From Shigella phage Shfl2, in the sequence record HM035025: DNA of 64,000 bases; one strand, 5' to 3'. Both the position numbers and the translations under genes were made by a program. This document shows, in pieces, positions 57,401-62,556 of the stretch (within the stretch, counting starts at the first letter, position 1; each line of letters opens with the position of its first letter). Below the pieces are notes generated by a model, which saw only the letters and a list, made by a program, of their open reading frames with translations, was not told the origin of the DNA and made no database searches.

Positions 57401-58036
57401 TCACAGTTCAGATGCTACGGTGATTACTGCTTCAATGTTTTCTGCCGAACGTTTAATGTCAAGATACACATTACCGTTTTTAGCGATTTTACATGACATT
57501 CCGATATCAGTAAATTTCTGAATATGATGTTCCATCATTTTGTATCCAAAAATTCGCATGTTTCCATTGTTGTTAATTTCAAAATTGCGAATTCCATGAG
57601 TGCGTTTTTCTAAAATAGCGAGATAGTTACTGCGATAAGTTTCAACTTTTTTAAGAACAAATCCATTTTCATCTAAAAGTTTTAACATGAAGTCTTTATC
57701 TTCTTCCATATCAGAAGTAATCTCGCGAGCTTTACGAGTTGCTCGTTTTTTCAGTAGTTCCGGAGCATTTTCCTGTGCGTATAAAGTTGCTGCATTTGAA
57801 ATAATATCCTGAGCTTCACCAGTAATGATTAATCCATCACCAGATTTCTCCACCAGGCCTTTTTTAATCAATACCCCAATATTACTATTAACTACTGCGT
57901 TACCTAAATCTGGATGCACCTCACGAACTTCTGCAGCTGTAATGAAATCTTTCTTAGCAATGGTAATTAAAATCGCAGCAGTTTTTTCATTCAGAACATC
58001 GTTAGAAGCTTTGATGATGTAAGTTACTTTAGACAT
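57401..58036 (-). CDS. motA: Middle-transcription activator MotA
   Basis: 211 aa. Confidence 0.9.
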   Translation of the reverse strand: MSKVTYIIKASNDVLNEKTAAILITIAKKDFITAAEVREVHPDLGNAVVNSNIGVLIKKGLVEKSGDGLIITGEAQDIISNAATLYAQENAPELLKKRATRKAREITSDMEEDKDFMLKLLDENGFVLKKVETYRSNYLAILEKRTHGIRNFEINNNGNMRIFGYKMMEHHIQKFTDIGMSCKIAKNGNVYLDIKRSAENIEAVITVASEL

Positions 58037-58060
58037 TTTCTAATCTCCGTAATTCTGTAT

Positions 58061-58120
58061 CAGTAGTTGATAGTTGTATAGTACCACAGTATGCTTTGGT
58101 TGTAAACCGTTTTGTGAAAA
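58061..58120 (-). promoter_or_regulatory. T4-type early promoter for motA
   Basis: GTTTAC -35 and GTGGTACTATACAAC -10 region; A/T-rich upstream element. Confidence 0.5.
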
Positions 58121-58159
58121 AAATTTTGAAATAAAAAAAGGGAGAGCCTCGGCTCTCCC
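58121..58159 (-). terminator. Rho-independent terminator downstream of gene 52 region
   Basis: GGGAGAGCC-UC-GGCUCUCCC hairpin followed by UUUUUUUAUUU on minus strand. Confidence 0.6.
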
Positions 58160-58311
58160 TAAAATTTACTGCATGACTGTGATAACTGTCATGATAACAC
58201 GTTGAATTCCGAACGCAAGAAGACCTCCTGCTACGGCTGGAACAACACCTACCCCCGCTAATAAAATGCCGCCAGATACTAATGCCGCGCTTGTAATACC
58301 AATGAATGGAC

Positions 58312-59640
58312 TCATTTGATTTCCTCTAAATCTTTGGTGTATTCTGTAACTACATCAGTAGTTTTCCAATATTCGTTTTCTTCTTTCTTAGCTTTAGCTT
58401 CTTCAGCAAGTTTCTTTGCTTCGTCGGAAGTCATATGAAAAATATTCATTCCGACTAGTTTATCAACATAAGAAGAATACATATCAATTTTAGAAAGTTC
58501 TTCAGTCAGTTCTTTGCGAGTTTTACCCTGCACAACGATTTCACCTGAAATTACTTTCTTAATGAAATGCGCCTTGGCAAAGGCTAAACGAAAAGCTGAT
58601 TCAGTTTCTTTAATTTTGTTATCAATTCGTTTTTGGACATAAGTTTTACGAACTTCAACAAAGTCTTTAATTAAATCGACTACGTTATCGTAAACTTGTA
58701 GTTTTCCTTTCTCATTAATAACCGTAATATTCTGAGAACGACGCTCAATCAACCCGAAGTCTTTCATAATTTTTGCGTGGCGTTCTTCTTCATTATCGCT
58801 CAAAGAATATTCTTTACGGAATTTAACTTTAAAGCCAAAACCATGCTCACCACAAGCATCATCCCACGTAATGAAGCCTTTATCTTCAAGCGGGTCTAAT
58901 ATTTTACTCACATAAGTTTCACGATCATACTTATACGGAATCTCAGTGATATTCATTTGAGTTCGTGAAGTAAACTTGTACGTTCCACGAATTTCATATT
59001 GACCGTCAATTTCAACGACTTCACCACGAAATTCTGGGAATTCTACCTTCGGTTTAGTTACTTTCTTTCCTTGAAGAGCTTGTAGTACAGCTTTCTTGAC
59101 AGAAGAAACACTATGAGGAAGAATGTAAGTTGCATAACCAGTTGCAATACCGGAAACACCATTAAGAAGAACAGTAGGAATAATAGGCAAATAGAAAGCA
59201 GGCGGAATGTGTTCTTTATCTTGATGTACCGGAGCATATTCAGTATCTTTATATACGCTATAGAAATTTTTACTTACACGAGCAAAAATATAACGACTTG
59301 CCGCTGCTTTTTGAACGGTACGAGAACCAAAGTTTCCTTGACCATCTAACAAAGGAAAGTTATTATTCCAAGTATTAGCCATCAAAGCCCCCGCGTCTTG
59401 CGCAGAGTTTTCACCATGATGATATCCAAGGTCAGCTACACCACCTGCAATAGAAGCGAGTTTGTGAAACTTATCTTTATTTCCTCGCGCCAAATCAAGA
59501 GCTCGAGCAATAACAAATCGTTGAACTGGCTTAAATCCATCAATCATATTTGGAATAGCACGATTTTCAACCGTGTACATAGCATAAGCCAATGCTTCAT
59601 TATCAATGATACTTTTTAAATCGCGATTATTCAGTTGCAT
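58312..59640 (-). CDS. 52: DNA topoisomerase II medium subunit gp52
   Basis: 442 aa. Confidence 0.9.
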   Translation of the reverse strand: MQLNNRDLKSIIDNEALAYAMYTVENRAIPNMIDGFKPVQRFVIARALDLARGNKDKFHKLASIAGGVADLGYHHGENSAQDAGALMANTWNNNFPLLDGQGNFGSRTVQKAAASRYIFARVSKNFYSVYKDTEYAPVHQDKEHIPPAFYLPIIPTVLLNGVSGIATGYATYILPHSVSSVKKAVLQALQGKKVTKPKVEFPEFRGEVVEIDGQYEIRGTYKFTSRTQMNITEIPYKYDRETYVSKILDPLEDKGFITWDDACGEHGFGFKVKFRKEYSLSDNEEERHAKIMKDFGLIERRSQNITVINEKGKLQVYDNVVDLIKDFVEVRKTYVQKRIDNKIKETESAFRLAFAKAHFIKKVISGEIVVQGKTRKELTEELSKIDMYSSYVDKLVGMNIFHMTSDEAKKLAEEAKAKKEENEYWKTTDVVTEYTKDLEEIK

Positions 59641-59642
59641 AA

Positions 59643-59783
59643 ATTTACCATACTAGTGAATGTAGTGCCATAATAACATCAGAAATGAAAAGCACGACTT
59701 GAATTAATCCGAACATTACTCCATAATATAGTGCTACCAATAAAGTAGCAAGGGCTAATGAATAGCCCAAGATTTTCTTAATC
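59643..59783 (-). CDS. Small hydrophobic peptide (about 46 aa), unannotated in ORF track
   Basis: Hand translation MIKKILGYSLALATLLVALYYGV...; single predicted TM helix. Confidence 0.35.
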
Positions 59784-59785
59784 AT

Positions 59786-59932
59786 TTTTATTTAATAGCC
59801 AAAACAATGATAAAACTGCTAATACGCCTTGAGCGGTTGCTTGTAAAAATACTGGAGTTTCTCCAGTTATTACTGTTCCGATGCATAAAACAGACCAACA
59901 GAAAAAGGCTACACCATAAACAAATTTCATAT
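59786..59932 (-). CDS. Small hydrophobic peptide (about 48 aa), possibly ac-like
   Basis: Hand translation MKFVYGVAFFCWSVLCIGTVITGETPVFLQATAQGVLAVLSLFWLLNKND; start overlaps next ORF stop. Confidence 0.35.
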
Positions 59933-59937
59933 TTTCC

Positions 59938-60018
59938 TCACTGGCGTCCGAAGACGCCTTTAGTTTTAAGATTATTACGATAGAACTGCATTACATGTTC
60001 GTTATGGAAATTACTCAT
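59938..60018 (-). CDS. stp: Stp peptide (26 aa), activator of host PrrC anticodon nuclease
   Basis: Hand translation gives exactly [26 protein letters not shown], the known T4 Stp sequence; coordinates within 1 nt. Confidence 0.8.
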
Positions 60019-60183
60019 ACACACCACACATTTTGCATAAACGTTCAAAACAGATAAATCCGCCACCTACACACATCACGACAGCCACATTATCATTAAG
60101 AGGTAGACCTAAAGCCGTAAAGATTCCAGTCAATGTGAATAAGGCTAAAACTAATAGGTAACCCATTACAAATAGAGCTTTCA

Positions 60184-60639
60184 TTAGTATGCCTGCAAAA
60201 CAAATTTAAAGTTATCAGCCAACATACGGTTCATTTCTTCAAGTGTTTGATACTCAGAATGATGATTACGAGTAAACGCCAAAGCTAACTGACCTTTTCC
60301 AAATCCCGTCGTAAGAGGTTTCATCTTAGAAGCAGGTAAATAAAATACCGTGTATGGAACATTGTTATTTGCAATAGTACACGCAAGCTGAGACCGACGC
60401 TGACGAATATGACTTAGAACTGCACTGAATCCTTGCTTAGAACGCTGATTACCTACATAAAATCGTGCAGATACACACGGACTATCAAATGGACCACCAA
60501 ATTTGCTTACTAAAAAGTAAAATCCAGGTTTAGATAAAATATCTTTATGCGGAGTTCCAAAAACCCATTCACCGCCCTTGATTGTACCAATAACAGTAGC
60601 ACCTGCATTATTCAGATCAGTAACAGTCATGTATTTCAT
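60184..60639 (-). CDS. ndd: Nucleoid disruption protein Ndd
   Basis: 151 aa from internal ATG with GAGGAA SD; track ORF extended to 167 aa. Confidence 0.8.
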
Positions 60640-60699
60640 ATTAATTTCCTCTAAATTATTTTCTACTCCAAGGCCGCATGAATACACACGGCCGATAAA

Positions 60700-60915
60700 T
60701 TAATCGTCGCAGTCGACGCTCAATTCCCAGAACTCTTCTACAGTATAAGTTTCAGTATCATTTTCAATACAGAAACGTTCATTACTGTTATTTGCTAAAG
60801 TAGCGTTAACTGTCATTTTCTCGCTAGTGCTCTTAAGAGGTGAAATACGAATTAACTGATCACCACTATCTAAGCAAAAAATTTCACCAACTTTTACATC
60901 TTTAAAGATTTTCAT
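60700..60915 (-). CDS. Hypothetical 71-aa acidic protein
   Basis: ORF in ndd-denB early cluster. Confidence 0.45.
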   Translation of the reverse strand: MKIFKDVKVGEIFCLDSGDQLIRISPLKSTSEKMTVNATLANNSNERFCIENDTETYTVEEFWELSVDCDD

Positions 60916-61030
60916 AATTCACCTCAAGGAGTATAAAATCCAAATGCAGTTGTTGACCATCCCATCCAGTATGGGAAATTTGCACCAATGTAAAACATAA
61001 GAATATAAAACCAACCACTCAGCAAATTCA

Positions 61031-61228
61031 TCATTTTACACCATTCCAAATTGTTTCAACTACGGATTTTAAACCATTTTGATGAATATCCATTCCGACT
61101 GCCGCCATCAAATAAATTCCAATTACAACTGAACCCAAGGCGAAAATCAGCATGAAAATGAATAAAGCCGGAAAAATATTATCGAAAAACCATTCAATAA
61201 ATGTAAAAACACTGCGTTTACGCTTCAT
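61031..61228 (-). CDS. Small membrane protein (about 65 aa from internal ATG)
   Basis: Two hydrophobic segments; SD GAGGAA before MKRKRS start. Confidence 0.4.
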   Translation of the reverse strand: MKRKRSVFTFIEWFFDNIFPALFIFMLIFALGSVVIGIYLMAAVGMDIHQNGLKSVVETIWNGVK

Positions 61229-61235
61229 ATTTTCC

Positions 61236-61349
61236 TCACATAAATCCAAAGTAAGCGTTTAATACATCAATCATTAAAACGATTGGGAATATACTCAAAA
61301 CTATTAGTATTATAACTACATTCCATATAGCTTTAATAATCTTTTTCAT
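61236..61349 (-). CDS. Small membrane peptide (about 37 aa)
   Basis: MKKIIKAIWNVVIILIVLSIFPIVLMIDVLNAYFGFM; GGAGGA SD; lies downstream of an early promoter at about 61361-61420. Confidence 0.35.
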   Translation of the reverse strand: MKKIIKAIWNVVIILIVLSIFPIVLMIDVLNAYFGFM

Positions 61350-61592
61350 TTTCTGTTCCTCCGTAGTTGATAGGGTAATAATACCACGGAAGAACAGTCT
61401 TGTAAACAACTTTTTTAAAAATATTCGTAATAAATGTGAATACCAACTACTACCGCTGAAACCTGTGCAACCCACCACGCACAAGCAATAAGTACAGAAT
61501 TCAAAATTTTCATAATAACCTCATCACAAAAGTAAATGTTAAACAAACTACCGGAATACTAATTAACCAAACAAAACACCACCATAGTGAAC

Positions 61593-61856
61593 TCATAGTT
61601 CAATCTCAGCGATTTTCATTTCATTACTATTAATAGCCGCTTTAAGACTATCTGAAAGAATTACATTCCAGTGGTCATTCATATAACCATTAACTAAGCG
61701 TGTAATTTCTTCAGGAGTTGAAAAATAAGGCTGATCAGACTCCCAATGCGATAATCCTAAGCGAGTATAAATCATACCTTCATCATCGCTAGAATATTCA
61801 ACTGACACAAACTCATCAGTTATTTTATGCTTAGCATAATAAAATTTAAATTTCAT
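61593..61856 (-). CDS. Hypothetical about 87-aa protein
   Basis: ORF from internal ATG downstream of early promoter at about 61861-61930. Confidence 0.4.
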   Translation of the reverse strand: MKFKFYYAKHKITDEFVSVEYSSDDEGMIYTRLGLSHWESDQPYFSTPEEITRLVNGYMNDHWNVILSDSLKAAINSNEMKIAEIEL

Positions 61857-61936
61857 TTTACTCTCCAAATCAGTATCAGTTGATAGTTGTATAGTACCAC
61901 GGTCCTTGTGGTATGTAAACTGTTTTGTGAAATTTT

Positions 61937-62494
61937 TTAAATGGAAAGATACCATCCGTTGTAGTTGCTTTTTCTTACAACCTTACGAAGGTCTTCTCTG
62001 TCACCGATGAACTTCGGAGTGTACTGGATGACACCTGGATGAATTTCTTTAGTGTTGAATATAATTATACAGTCAGCGACCTGGTGATTTAGAATGGGCC
62101 CTAGATTTATTCCAGAACCATATGGATACTCTCCGCTGCATCCTGTTGTTACCGAAATCCAACGTGAGTCAGTTTGATGTGTCTTAACTTCTACACGAAG
62201 CCCACAGTATTTTGGATGTGCTAAAACATCCCATGCATATGTGTACGGATCATCGACATCTTCTTGGCCTTTATTGACATATCCGCTTAGCCAATCTGCC
62301 ACAAAAAACTCTGCGTACACAGCGATACGGCATCTTTCGATAACTTCTGCCTTATCCTGATTTGGGTTTTGTTTTAAAGAGTATCTTACAGTATCAGCAA
62401 TTTTGGCCTTCATTTCACTAGTCAAGTCACTGTTAGATAGGGTAAATGACGGAATCTGAAATAGTCTCTGCAAACCCGGATTCGTTTTCTGCAT
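61937..62494 (-). CDS. denB: Endonuclease IV
   Basis: 185 aa as in T4 DenB. Confidence 0.85.
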   Translation of the reverse strand: MQKTNPGLQRLFQIPSFTLSNSDLTSEMKAKIADTVRYSLKQNPNQDKAEVIERCRIAVYAEFFVADWLSGYVNKGQEDVDDPYTYAWDVLAHPKYCGLRVEVKTHQTDSRWISVTTGCSGEYPYGSGINLGPILNHQVADCIIIFNTKEIHPGVIQYTPKFIGDREDLRKVVRKSNYNGWYLSI

Positions 62495-62556
62495 TTAAAC
62501 TTTCCTTTATGTCGGAATCATAATTTCTCTTAAAACAAAAGGGCCGAAGCCCTTAT

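What the first reader, a model, noticed from the sequence alone, without database searches (positions are those of the whole stretch)
59641..60183. Unannotated small-peptide cluster between gene 52 and ndd: Stp plus at least three short hydrophobic ORFs
All are below the ORF-track size cutoff. Hand translation recovers the 26-aa Stp peptide exactly ([26 protein letters not shown]), whose 3' end folds into a C(UUCG)G hairpin. Flanking it are a 46-aa and a 48-aa single-TM peptide with overlapping stop/start (ATGATTAA) and a further roughly 57-aa hydrophobic ORF. Stp is a known modulator of the host Prr restriction/anticodon-nuclease system, so the neighbours are candidates for further host-interaction peptides.
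Basis: partly seen in the sequence, partly recalled or inferred. Interest (0 to 1): 0.45.

Follow-up and report, generated by a model that had tools for sequence, protein, structure and literature searches.

The report
T-even phage stp/ac micro-gene operon
The stretch between the phage T4-type genes ndd and 52 holds four tiny, tightly packed genes (a 57-codon membrane peptide, Stp, an Ac-type peptide and gp52.1); all four belong to already catalogued phage families, so the finding is real but ordinary.

Summary
The window is a Tequatrovirus (T4-like; 99.9% identical to UFV-AREG1 here). On the minus strand, between ndd and gene 52, lie four small genes with overlapping stop and start codons:
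- orf57, 60011-60184
- stp, 59938-60018
- an ac-type gene of 50 codons (not 48), 59778-59930
- 52.1, 59645-59785

Stp is identical to T4 Stp, and the CUUCGG hairpin is real. T4's reference annotation already carries 52.1, ac and stp. orf57 is absent from T4 (a 166-bp indel), but RefSeq annotates it as hypothetical in UFV-AREG1, and it belongs to phrog_5941.

Comparison across six Tevenvirinae genera shows that orf57 and 52.1 are genuine coding genes. Their lengths are fixed at 57 and 46 codons, only the sense frame is open, and dN/dS is 0.04-0.5.

The window's ac is a divergent allele: 38% amino-acid identity to T4 Ac, same PHROG, QAxAQG motif kept. It sits between near-identical flanks.

The neighbours are not tied to Stp. 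Klebsiella, Serratia and Erwinia phages keep them without stp, and T4 has stp without orf57.

Known or proposed functions are type Ic restriction inhibition and PrrC triggering for Stp, and acridine sensitisation, proposed to act by AcrAB-TolC blockade, for Ac. The functions of 52.1 and orf57 are unknown. Novelty: already known. Interest: low.

The parts
60011..60184 (-). orf57: 57-aa hydrophobic peptide, [57 protein letters not shown]. Family phrog_5941. Absent from T4. Its ATG overlaps the ndd stop (TAATG) and its stop overlaps the stp start (ATGAGTAA, 60018-60011).
   Evidence: phrog_5941 at E = 2.1e-27; a 166-bp indel relative to T4; 220 phage records, all covering at least 80% of the query, identities mostly below 60%; same position after ndd and 57 codons in 10 loci; dN/dS 0.04-0.46; only the sense frame is open. 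AF2 two-helix hairpin, pLDDT 71; only 14 clusters in 1.84 billion representatives.
59938..60018 (-). stp: 26-aa Stp peptide, identical to T4 Stp. Stp inhibits type Ic restriction (EcoprrI, EcoR124I) and triggers the PrrC anticodon nuclease.
   Evidence: for sequence identity. PF08133 at 75.3 bits against a cut-off of 25; phrog_6763. Function taken from review PMC3014915.
59943..59958 (-). CUUCGG-type hairpin GGCGUC(UUCG)GACGCC inside stp codons 21-26 (G-V-F-G-R-Q). It ends 2 nt before the stp stop codon and 3 nt before the GAGGA ribosome-binding site of ac.
   Evidence: -12.3 kcal/mol, z = -2.8; the hairpin is found, with a T-run only on the + strand; kept in Tequatro-, Dhaka- and Gaprivervirus stp with only loop changes or G.U-preserving changes; absent in T6 and Sf12; annotated 'terminator' in the SA21RB record.
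59935..59939 (-). GAGGA Shine-Dalgarno sequence 4 nt upstream of the ac ATG, overlapping the stp TGA stop. It is the only strong ribosome-binding site in the cluster.
   Evidence: Read directly from the sequence. The same ...TGAGGAAAATATG linker precedes every ac-position gene type in 12 loci.
59778..59930 (-). ac-type gene: 50-aa peptide MKFVYGVAFFCWSVLCIGTVITGETPVFLQATAQGVLAVLSLFWLLNKND. It is a divergent allele of T4 Ac, the acridine-sensitivity peptide. Its stop overlaps the 52.1 start (ATGATTAA, 59785-59778).
   Evidence: phrog_2501 at E = 2.5e-23. T4 Ac falls in the same PHROG; 38% amino-acid identity to T4 Ac; invariant W12, T19, V27, Q30, A31, Q34; 75/139 nt identical to T4 while the flanks are 96-99% identical; 591 records.
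59645..59785 (-). 52.1: 46-aa hydrophobic peptide MIKKILGYSLALATLLVALYYGVMFGLIQVVLFISDVIMALHSLVW (gp52.1, Pfam DUF7396). It ends 4 nt before the gene 52 ATG.
   Evidence: PF24129 at 81.9 bits against a cut-off of 27; phrog_3595; annotated in T4; dN/dS 0.05-0.5 and 46 codons in nine lineages; only the sense frame is open; 24 invariant columns. AF2 single helix 2-45, pLDDT 96.
60184..60639 (-). ndd (context): nucleoid disruption protein, 151 aa from the ATG at 60639. It is the upstream gene whose stop codon is overlapped by the orf57 start.
   Evidence: 100% identical to UFV-AREG1 Ndd and 95% to T4 Ndd.
58312..59640 (-). gene 52 (context): DNA topoisomerase II medium subunit, 442 aa. It is the downstream gene of the same transcription unit.

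Best explanation
This is the ndd-to-52 early-gene segment of a T-even (Tequatrovirus) phage. It is a run of four micro-genes read in one direction on the minus strand and chained to each other by overlapping or abutting stop and start codons:
- ndd TAATG orf57
- orf57 ATGAGTAA stp
- stp TGAGGAAAATATG ac
- ac ATGATTAA 52.1
- 52.1, then 4 nt, then gene 52

Only ac has a strong Shine-Dalgarno sequence. I infer that the other three are translated mainly by ribosomes handed on from the preceding gene.

Products:
1. Stp is a soluble 26-aa peptide. In T4 it binds and inhibits type Ic restriction enzymes and thereby unmasks the PrrC tRNA-Lys anticodon nuclease. Its sequence here is identical to T4 Stp, so the same activity is expected.
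2. The window carries an Ac-family peptide. It is a divergent allele predicted to form a two-segment inner-membrane hairpin. [quoted passage not shown]
3. gp52.1 (DUF7396) is a small hydrophobic peptide under purifying selection with no experimentally known function. I infer that it inserts in the inner membrane early in infection and acts on a host envelope component.
4. orf57 (phrog_5941) is of the same kind. It is ancestral to Tevenvirinae at this position and was lost from T4 and most Tequatroviruses by a precise 166-bp deletion.

The CUUCGG hairpin at the end of stp is an RNA-level element that sits just before the ac ribosome-binding site. It most likely acts as an mRNA stability or processing barrier and structural insulator. 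It is not a terminator on the coding strand.

Shown: gene identities, family membership, coding constraint, synteny, the indel, allele divergence, and early transcription of the T4 homologues.

Inferred: translational coupling, membrane insertion, and the molecular targets of Ac, 52.1 and orf57.
For: - Identity of the locus: 99.9% to UFV-AREG1; 578 T4-like records match. T4 annotates 52.1, ac and stp in the same order.
- Family membership: PHROG and Pfam hits for all four.
- orf57 is a 166-bp indel bounded by ATGA. It is nevertheless present after ndd with exactly 57 codons in Dhaka-, Gapriver-, Jiaoda- and Winklervirus and an unclassified Klebsiella phage.
- Coding constraint: dN/dS is 0.04-0.46 for orf57 and 0.05-0.5 for 52.1. 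Differences by codon position are 872/617/1374 and 448/185/651. No stops occur in the sense frame, against 1-9 stops in every other frame, in 9 lineages.
- Structure: orf57 has helices 2-24 and 31-52. 52.1 is one helix 2-45.
- Ac: 38% identity to T4 Ac with the QAxAQG motif kept. A T4 G38R change in that motif gives acriflavine resistance, and Ac expression sensitises E. coli to acriflavine (bioRxiv 10.1101/2025.06.30.662393).
- Stp function: PMC3014915.
- Expression: T4 52.1, ac and stp transcripts are classed early, and their proteins were not detected by LC-MS (PMC9697503, Table S2).
- Hairpin.
Against: - There is no direct evidence of translation for orf57, 52.1 or this ac allele. The T4 proteome study did not detect 52.1, Ac or Stp.
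- The AcrAB-TolC mechanism for Ac is a proposal in a preprint, not a demonstrated interaction. It was made for the T4 allele, which is only 38% identical to this one.
- The window's Ac also carries Pro26 where all six compared homologues have Ser, so it may not be fully functional.
- The AF2 model of orf57 is of moderate confidence only (pLDDT 71, four-sequence alignment).
- Membrane topology was not tested with a dedicated predictor.
- The role of the hairpin is inferred. Only one-sided (G.U) changes were seen, with no double compensatory change.
Confidence: 0.85

Rival explanations
1. The hydrophobic neighbours (orf57, Ac-type, 52.1) are accessory components of the Stp/Prr interplay. On this reading they are further modulators of the host restriction and anticodon-nuclease system and co-evolve with Stp.
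For: They are physically adjacent and chained to stp by overlapping stop and start codons. All are transcribed early in T4.
Against: - Co-occurrence fails. Jiaodavirus (KP179, 311F), Winklervirus (CHI14, Vettismorki) and Klebsiella phage CP-p-KP-21072 keep orf57, 52.1 and usually an ac-position peptide, but have no stp.
- T4 and most Tequatroviruses have stp without orf57.
- A PF08133 Stp-family peptide is found in Drexlerviridae Sf12 among unrelated genes.
- Stp alone is necessary and sufficient for PrrC activation (PMC3014915).
- EcoprrI and PrrC are cytoplasmic, whereas the neighbours are hydrophobic.
Confidence: 0.04
2. orf57 and/or 52.1 are not functional proteins. On this reading they are translated spacers (relay ORFs) whose only role is to carry ribosomes from ndd to stp and from ac to gene 52. 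Alternatively they are untranslated linker sequence.
For: - Neither has a good Shine-Dalgarno sequence, and both starts overlap the preceding stop.
- T4 does without orf57 and joins the ndd stop directly to the stp start.
- The T4 deletion sa-delta-9, which removes 52.1 through denB, is viable (PMC6071114).
- The T4 peptides 52.1, Ac and Stp were not seen by mass spectrometry; orf57 has no T4 counterpart and was not assayed.
Against: - A pure relay ORF would not conserve its amino-acid sequence. dN/dS is well below 1. The lengths are invariant at 57 and 46 codons from E. coli to Serratia and Klebsiella phages.
- Conserved motifs persist: F-E-R-L/I-C-K-x-x-G-V-Y in orf57, and MIKK...YYG...VLFISDVI in 52.1.
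- The C-terminal motif of orf57 is kept even in phages without a downstream stp.
- Failure to detect 26-57-aa hydrophobic peptides by standard LC-MS is expected.
Confidence: 0.06
3. The small hydrophobic peptides act as membrane-permeabilising or depolarising effectors, or as superinfection-exclusion effectors (Imm-, Sp-, holin- or antiholin-like). On this reading they are not inhibitors of specific host proteins such as AcrB, and acridine sensitivity is a by-product of general leakiness.
For: - The classical interpretation of ac was increased permeability to acridines (Silver 1960s, as summarised).
- The ac position is filled by several unrelated hairpin-type peptide families (phrog_2501, phrog_9347 and others). 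This fits a generic membrane effect better than a specific protein contact.
- The sa-delta-9 deletion abolishes T4-induced stimulation of phosphatidylglycerol synthesis.
Against: - A single G38R substitution abolishes the Ac phenotype, and the QAxAQG motif is conserved. This argues for a specific interaction.
- Ac expression was also reported to sensitise cells to ampicillin, another AcrAB-TolC substrate.
- None of the peptides hit holin, Imm or Sp families.
Confidence: 0.1

Closest known systems
Phage T4 stp (NP_049878; Pfam PF08133 Nuclease_act; phrog_6763)
   Same: The 26-aa sequence is identical. The position downstream of ndd and upstream of ac is the same. The CUUCGG hairpin in the last codons and the TGAGGAAAATATG linker to ac are the same.
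   Different: In T4 the stp ATG overlaps the ndd stop. Here it overlaps the stop of the inserted orf57. There are three synonymous nucleotide differences (78/81).
Phage T4 ac (NP_049877, 'acridine resistance protein'; phrog_2501)
   Same: Same PHROG (E = 2.5e-23, against 2.2e-25 for T4 Ac). Same slot between stp and 52.1. Same stop/start overlap with 52.1. Same two-segment hydrophobic layout. Conserved W, T, V, the QAxAQG motif, and the Gly whose G38R change gives acriflavine resistance in T4.
   Different: Only 38% amino-acid and 54% nucleotide identity, although the flanking genes are 96-99% identical. It is 50 rather than 51 aa. The turn is TGETP instead of IDASS. It carries a unique Pro26. 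The allele resembles RB33-, wV7- and JS98-orf256- or KP179-type Ac more than T4 Ac. Its acridine phenotype is untested.
Phage T4 gp52.1 (NP_049876; Pfam DUF7396 / PF24129; phrog_3595)
   Same: 45 of 46 residues are identical to T4 gp52.1. Position and overlaps are the same.
   Different: One conservative substitution (T14 against A14). Function is unknown in both.
phrog_5941 / pVOG VOG5642 hypothetical 57-aa proteins of T4-like phages (for example YP_010581655.1 of UFV-AREG1 and dhaeg_269)
   Same: 100% identical to the UFV-AREG1, ESh26 and 101117BS1 proteins. It is 40-68% identical to the Dhaka-, Gapriver-, Jiaoda- and Winklervirus proteins. It always comes directly after ndd and almost always has 57 codons.
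   Different: There is no T4 counterpart, so it has no T4 gene name and no genetics. Within Tequatrovirus-like records only about 20 of about 580 carry it.
E. coli AcrZ-type small inner-membrane regulators of AcrB (functional analogy only; recalled from general knowledge)
   Same: A peptide of about 50 aa and helical in the membrane that modulates a large envelope machine. This is the kind of mechanism proposed for Ac.
   Different: No homology was tested or claimed. AcrZ is a host protein and a single helix. Ac is proposed to inhibit the pump rather than tune it. No binding data exist.

Membership tests
Stp / Pfam PF08133 (anticodon nuclease activator) | Profile match above the curated threshold, with the conserved N-terminal 18 residues that carry the activity. 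| tested here: met
   75.3 bits against a cut-off of 25. All 26 residues are identical to T4 Stp. The importance of the N-terminal 18 residues is taken from PMC3014915.
Stp / Pfam PF08133 (anticodon nuclease activator) | Inhibits type Ic restriction (EcoprrI, EcoR124I) and activates latent PrrC. | not testable with these tools
   This is a biochemical and genetic property. It is expected from sequence identity only.
Ac / phrog_2501 (T4 acridine-sensitivity peptide) | Sequence membership in the same family as T4 Ac. | tested here: met
   The window peptide scores E = 2.5e-23 and T4 Ac scores E = 2.2e-25 against phrog_2501. Pairwise BLASTP gives 38% identity at E = 4e-10.
Ac / phrog_2501 (T4 acridine-sensitivity peptide) | Genomic slot between stp (or orf57) and 52.1, with its stop overlapping the 52.1 start. 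| tested here: met
Ac / phrog_2501 (T4 acridine-sensitivity peptide) | Conserved QAxAQG motif, including the Gly whose substitution (G38R in T4) abolishes function. | tested here: met
   Q30-A31-T32-A33-Q34-G35 is present. The motif's relevance is taken from bioRxiv 10.1101/2025.06.30.662393.
Ac / phrog_2501 (T4 acridine-sensitivity peptide) | Confers acridine sensitivity on infection, and its loss gives acriflavine resistance. | not testable with these tools
   This is a phenotype. It has not been tested for this allele, which also carries a unique Pro26.
gp52.1 / Pfam DUF7396 (PF24129) | Profile match above the curated threshold over the full 46-residue length. | tested here: met
   81.9 bits against a cut-off of 27, aligned 1-46 of 46. 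There are 24 invariant columns among 11 homologues.
phrog_5941 (57-aa peptide following ndd) | Full-length profile match and conserved position immediately after ndd. | tested here: met
   E = 2.1e-27, aligned 1-57 of 57. Synteny holds in 10 loci of 6 lineages.
Rho-independent (intrinsic) terminator, for the stp hairpin | A GC-rich stem-loop followed directly by a U-run on the transcribed (minus) strand. | tested here: not met
   On the minus strand the stem is followed by AGUGAGGAAAAUAUG. The T-run (TTTAGTTTTA) follows the stem only on the plus strand. The 'terminator' annotation in SA21RB is therefore doubtful for the coding strand.
Known structured RNA families (Rfam) | A covariance-model match at or above the gathering score. 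| tested here: not met
   There were no matches inside 59641-60183. The four weak hits elsewhere in 58000-62000 were all far below their gathering scores.

The most novel reading that the evidence does not exclude
The slot between stp and 52.1 may be a diversifying 'cassette' of small inner-membrane hairpin peptides. At least phrog_2501 in two deeply split allele groups and phrog_9347 occupy it, sometimes in tandem. The cassettes would be swapped between phage genera across conserved flanks, namely the stp hairpin/SD linker and the 52.1 start. Each type could target a different host envelope machine or variant, for example RND efflux pumps.

Separately, orf57, which is always translationally chained to ndd, could be a membrane partner of the nucleoid-disruption protein that T4 has dispensed with.

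If so, the locus would be an arms-race hotspot of micropeptide inhibitors rather than a set of dispensable fillers.
Probability: 0.15. Interest if true: 0.5.

Novelty: already known. Interest (0 to 1): 0.15.

Why it matters
The finding matters little as a discovery. Three of the four genes have been in the T4 map for decades, and the fourth is already in PHROGs, pVOGs and RefSeq as a hypothetical protein.

Its residual value is practical:

1. Automatic annotation of T4-like genomes is inconsistent here. The closest RefSeq record omits stp and 52.1. T6 RefSeq annotates nothing between ndd and 52. Sf12 omits an Stp-family ORF.
2. orf57 and gp52.1 are clean examples of conserved phage micropeptides without a function. 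They are good targets for micropeptide screens.
3. The divergent ac alleles give a natural series for testing the proposed Ac and AcrAB-TolC interaction. That interaction bears on phage-antibiotic synergy.

Tried and rejected
- Rfam scan of 58000-62000 at a permissive E-value: nothing in the cluster.
- PDB sequence searches with Stp, Ac and an orf57 profile: no hits at E up to 1.
- PADLOC defence models for the three hydrophobic peptides: none.
- tblastn of orf57 against 72,556 plasmids: no match. The family looks phage-restricted.
- The word-indexed protein search for orf57 found only 3 clusters. The exhaustive HMMER search found 14, about 11 of them credible 57-61-aa proteins. The weak hits to 734-1070-aa proteins are short hydrophobic stretches, and I disregarded them.
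- A weak Pfam hit of orf57 to TadB_TadC_N (E = 0.045, 14 bits against a cut-off of 27) and of 52.1 to Glycophorin_A (E = 0.16) were rejected as hydrophobic-segment noise.
- The plus-strand ORFs (58 aa at 59807-59983; 42 aa at 60033-60161) and the nested minus-strand 36-aa ORF were rejected. Every non-sense frame carries stops across the orf57 and 52.1 intervals in relatives, and the 58-aa ORF is antisense to the variable ac cassette and to stp.
- Terminator reading of the hairpin on the coding strand: rejected, because there is no U-run.
- The promoter scan gave no excess over shuffles (18 found against 15.4 expected), so no promoter is claimed inside the cluster.
- Fold searches with the AF2 models were not run. 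One- and two-helix models give meaningless matches.
Full report
**What is there.**
- The region reads as part of a T4-like (Tequatrovirus) genome. Positions 59500-60300 are 99.9% identical to Escherichia phage UFV-AREG1, and 578 phage records match.
- All genes here are on the minus strand. In transcription order they are:
  - ndd, 60639-60184, 151 aa
  - a 57-aa hydrophobic ORF (here called orf57), 60184-60011
  - stp, 60018-59938, 26 aa
  - an ac-type ORF, 59930-59778, 50 aa
  - 52.1, 59785-59645, 46 aa
  - gene 52, 59640-58312
- The genes are chained to one another:
  - The orf57 ATG overlaps the ndd stop (TAATG).
  - The stp ATG overlaps the orf57 stop (ATGAGTAA).
  - The ac ATG lies 7 nt after the stp stop, behind a GAGGA Shine-Dalgarno sequence that overlaps that stop.
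  - The 52.1 ATG overlaps the ac stop (ATGATTAA).
  - Gene 52 starts 4 nt after 52.1.
- Only ac has a strong ribosome-binding site. I therefore infer translational coupling for the other three.

**Check of the observation.**
It is identical to the T4 peptide and scores 75.3 bits against Pfam PF08133, whose cut-off is 25.
- The C(UUCG)G hairpin is real. GGCGUC-UUCG-GACGCC lies at 59958-59943, inside the last stp codons. Its 51-nt context folds at -12.3 kcal/mol, z = -2.8 against shuffles.
- The 46-aa ORF, the 57-aa ORF and the ATGATTAA overlap are all present.
- Corrections are needed on four points:
  - The '48-aa' peptide is 50 aa.
  - The 46- and 50-aa ORFs both lie downstream of stp and do not flank it.
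  - 'Single-TM' is plausible only for 52.1, which AF2 models as one helix 2-45 at pLDDT 96. orf57 is modelled as a helix-turn-helix hairpin, helices 2-24 and 31-52, at pLDDT 71. Ac has two hydrophobic segments separated by TGETP, in line with the two-helix ESMFold model reported for T4 Ac.
  - The cluster is annotated in public records.
- On annotation, T4 NC_000866 lists 52.1, ac and stp. RefSeq UFV-AREG1 lists the 50- and 57-aa ORFs but omits stp and 52.1. Records 101117BS1 and ESh26 list all four.

**Are the small ORFs genes?**
- All four hit existing PHROG families at E of 1e-21 to 1e-27: phrog_5941, 6763, 2501 and 3595. 52.1 is Pfam DUF7396.
- I fetched the homologous locus from 13 further phages. 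They span Tequatro-, Dhaka-, Gapriver-, Jiaoda- and Winklervirus and an unclassified Klebsiella phage.
- The order ndd > orf57 > (stp) > ac-position peptide > 52.1 > 52 is conserved.
- orf57 has exactly 57 codons everywhere, apart from one phage with a possible 4-codon upstream start. 52.1 has exactly 46 codons in the nine lineages compared; the Winklervirus counterparts (CHI14, Vettismorki) are divergent and longer and were left out.
- Pairwise Nei-Gojobori dN/dS is 0.04-0.46 for orf57 and 0.05-0.5 for 52.1. Both show a clear third-position excess: 872/617/1374 and 448/185/651 differences by codon position.
- In nine lineages only the sense frame is free of stops.
- Conserved motifs are MGY and FERLCKxxGVY in orf57, and MIKK, YYG and VLFISDVI in 52.1. 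They argue for protein-level constraint.
- Direct evidence of translation is lacking. In the T4 dual-omics study, 52.1, ac and stp transcripts are 'early' but the proteins are 'NA', meaning not detected (PMC9697503, Table S2). That is unsurprising for peptides of this size and hydrophobicity.

**What differs from T4.**
- First, orf57 is missing from T4. The alignment shows a clean 166-bp indel bounded by ATGA, so in T4 the stp ATG overlaps the ndd stop instead.
  - The gene sits in the same place in distant genera. Only about 20 of about 580 Tequatrovirus-like records carry a near-identical copy.
  - The simplest reading is therefore ancestral presence and loss in the T4 lineage, or loss and re-acquisition.
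  - The Dhakavirus C6 copy is 95% identical to the window's, although its ndd is only 62% identical. So the segment does move between genera.
  - The family is small and phage-restricted: 220 phage records, 14 clusters among 1.84 billion representatives, and none in plasmids.
- Second, the ac gene is a divergent allele.
  - It has 38% amino-acid identity to T4 Ac. Nucleotide identity is 75/139, while stp (78/81) and 52.1 (139/141) are nearly identical.
  - Both alleles fall in phrog_2501. They share W12, T19, V27 and Q30-A31-x-A33-Q34-G35.
  - Some phages carry both types in tandem. Examples are 101117BS1 and the 632 places found in 591 records.
  - Other genera put an unrelated hairpin peptide (phrog_9347) in the same slot.
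  - JS98 has stp plus ac followed by a start-less stp remnant plus the phrog_9347 peptide.
  - The slot therefore behaves as an exchangeable cassette between conserved flanks.

**Function.**
- Stp's function is established in T4. It is necessary and sufficient to activate the latent PrrC tRNA-Lys anticodon nuclease. It does so by inhibiting the associated type Ic restriction enzyme EcoprrI, and it also inhibits EcoR124I. Activity resides in the N-terminal 18 residues (PMC3014915).
- For Ac, loss gives acriflavine resistance and expression sensitises E. coli to acriflavine and ampicillin. A G38R change in the conserved motif abolishes the effect. Blockade of AcrAB-TolC is proposed but not demonstrated (bioRxiv 10.1101/2025.06.30.662393; echoed in PMC13250531).
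- For 52.1 and orf57 no function is known.
- The T4 deletion sa-delta-9, which removes 52.1 through denB, is viable at about half the wild-type rate of phage production. It loses the phage-induced stimulation of phosphatidylglycerol synthesis (PMC6071114).
- My committed reading is that these are early, translationally coupled inner-membrane micropeptides that act on host envelope components. That step is inference.

**Is the cluster a functional unit with Stp?**
- No. Klebsiella, Serratia and Erwinia T4-like phages keep orf57, 52.1 and usually an ac-position peptide without stp.
- T4 keeps stp without orf57.
- An unannotated 30-aa ORF in the Drexlerviridae phage Sf12 passes the Pfam Stp threshold (49.9 bits) in an unrelated neighbourhood.

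**The hairpin.**
- It lies within the stp codons G-V-F-G-R-Q and ends 3 nt before the ac ribosome-binding site.
- Across stp variants the changes are in the loop (UUCG to UUUG) or preserve pairing through G.U (UPEC07, JS98). T6 and Sf12 have a different C-terminus and lack the hairpin.
- The C-terminal 8 residues of Stp are reported to be largely dispensable. Some RNA-level selection is therefore plausible, but I saw no double compensatory change.
- On the coding strand no U-run follows the stem, so it does not meet the definition of an intrinsic terminator. On the plus strand the stem is followed by TTTAGTTTTA.
- I favour an mRNA stability or processing and insulation role. That role is inferred.

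**Verdict.**
- The idea that the neighbours are host-interaction peptides is reasonable, and it is already the working view for Ac. The link to Stp is not supported.
- Novelty: already known. Interest: low (0.15).

Noticed in passing
window 59853-59855 (ac codon 26, CCA on the minus strand): The window's Ac has Pro26 (TGETP), where UFV-AREG1 and all five other compared Ac homologues have Ser. This is the single difference from UFV-AREG1 in 801 nt. No record among 50,697 phage genomes encodes the identical Ac. It could be a natural variant, a propagation-selected ac mutation or a sequencing error.
   Followed up: partly
window 59786-59930, compared with L004 (T4), L002 and L009: The ac slot is a sharply bounded variable cassette. 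It is 54% nucleotide-identical to T4, while stp and 52.1 on either side are 96-99% identical. Some phages carry two ac-type genes in tandem (101117BS1; 632 places in 591 records). JS98 carries stp plus ac and then a start-less stp remnant plus a phrog_9347 peptide.
   Followed up: partly
window 60019-60184, compared with L004 (T4): orf57 corresponds to a precise 166-bp indel bounded by ATGA. It keeps stop/start overlaps in both states: ndd/stp in T4, and ndd/orf57 plus orf57/stp here. Only about 20 of about 580 Tequatrovirus-like records carry it, yet it is conserved in Klebsiella, Serratia and Erwinia T4-likes.
   Followed up: yes
L013 (Escherichia phage C6, Dhakavirus) 1501-1674: C6's orf57 is 95% identical to the window's but only 72-74% identical to the orf57 of other Dhakaviruses. 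Its adjacent ndd is only 62% identical to the window's. This indicates exchange of the small segment between genera.
   Followed up: partly
L015 (Shigella phage Sf12, Drexlerviridae) 1183-1275: An unannotated 30-aa ORF, [30 protein letters not shown], passes the Pfam Stp family threshold (PF08133, 49.9 bits against a cut-off of 25). tblastn with Stp also gives weaker hits in many 40-50-kb Salmonella, Citrobacter and E. coli phages. I found no paper in the searched library that mentions Stp together with Drexlerviridae.
   Followed up: partly
window 59943-59968, + strand: Read on the plus (antisense) strand, the stp hairpin is followed by TTTAGTTTTA and matches an intrinsic-terminator pattern. 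On the coding strand it does not. It might stop antisense or late-mode transcription, although no plus-strand gene lies nearby.
   Followed up: no
window 62539-62554, - strand: A second UUCG-loop hairpin (AAGGGC-UUCG-GCCCUU) is followed by a T-run on the minus strand. It is terminator-like and lies upstream of the denB-side small-gene cluster.
   Followed up: no
window 60700-61600, - strand: Upstream of ndd lies a further run of very small, mostly hydrophobic ORFs. They are homologues of T4 ndd.1 to ndd.5 and are annotated in UFV-AREG1 as predicted membrane or periplasmic proteins. They are the same kind of micropeptide cluster, also of unknown function.
   Followed up: no
L001 (RefSeq UFV-AREG1), L016 (RefSeq T6), L007 (CHI14): Annotation of this segment is inconsistent between records. 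UFV-AREG1 omits stp and 52.1. T6 RefSeq has no feature at all between ndd and 52. CHI14 omits orf57. Several records call stp with a GTG start, giving 29 aa.
   Followed up: yes
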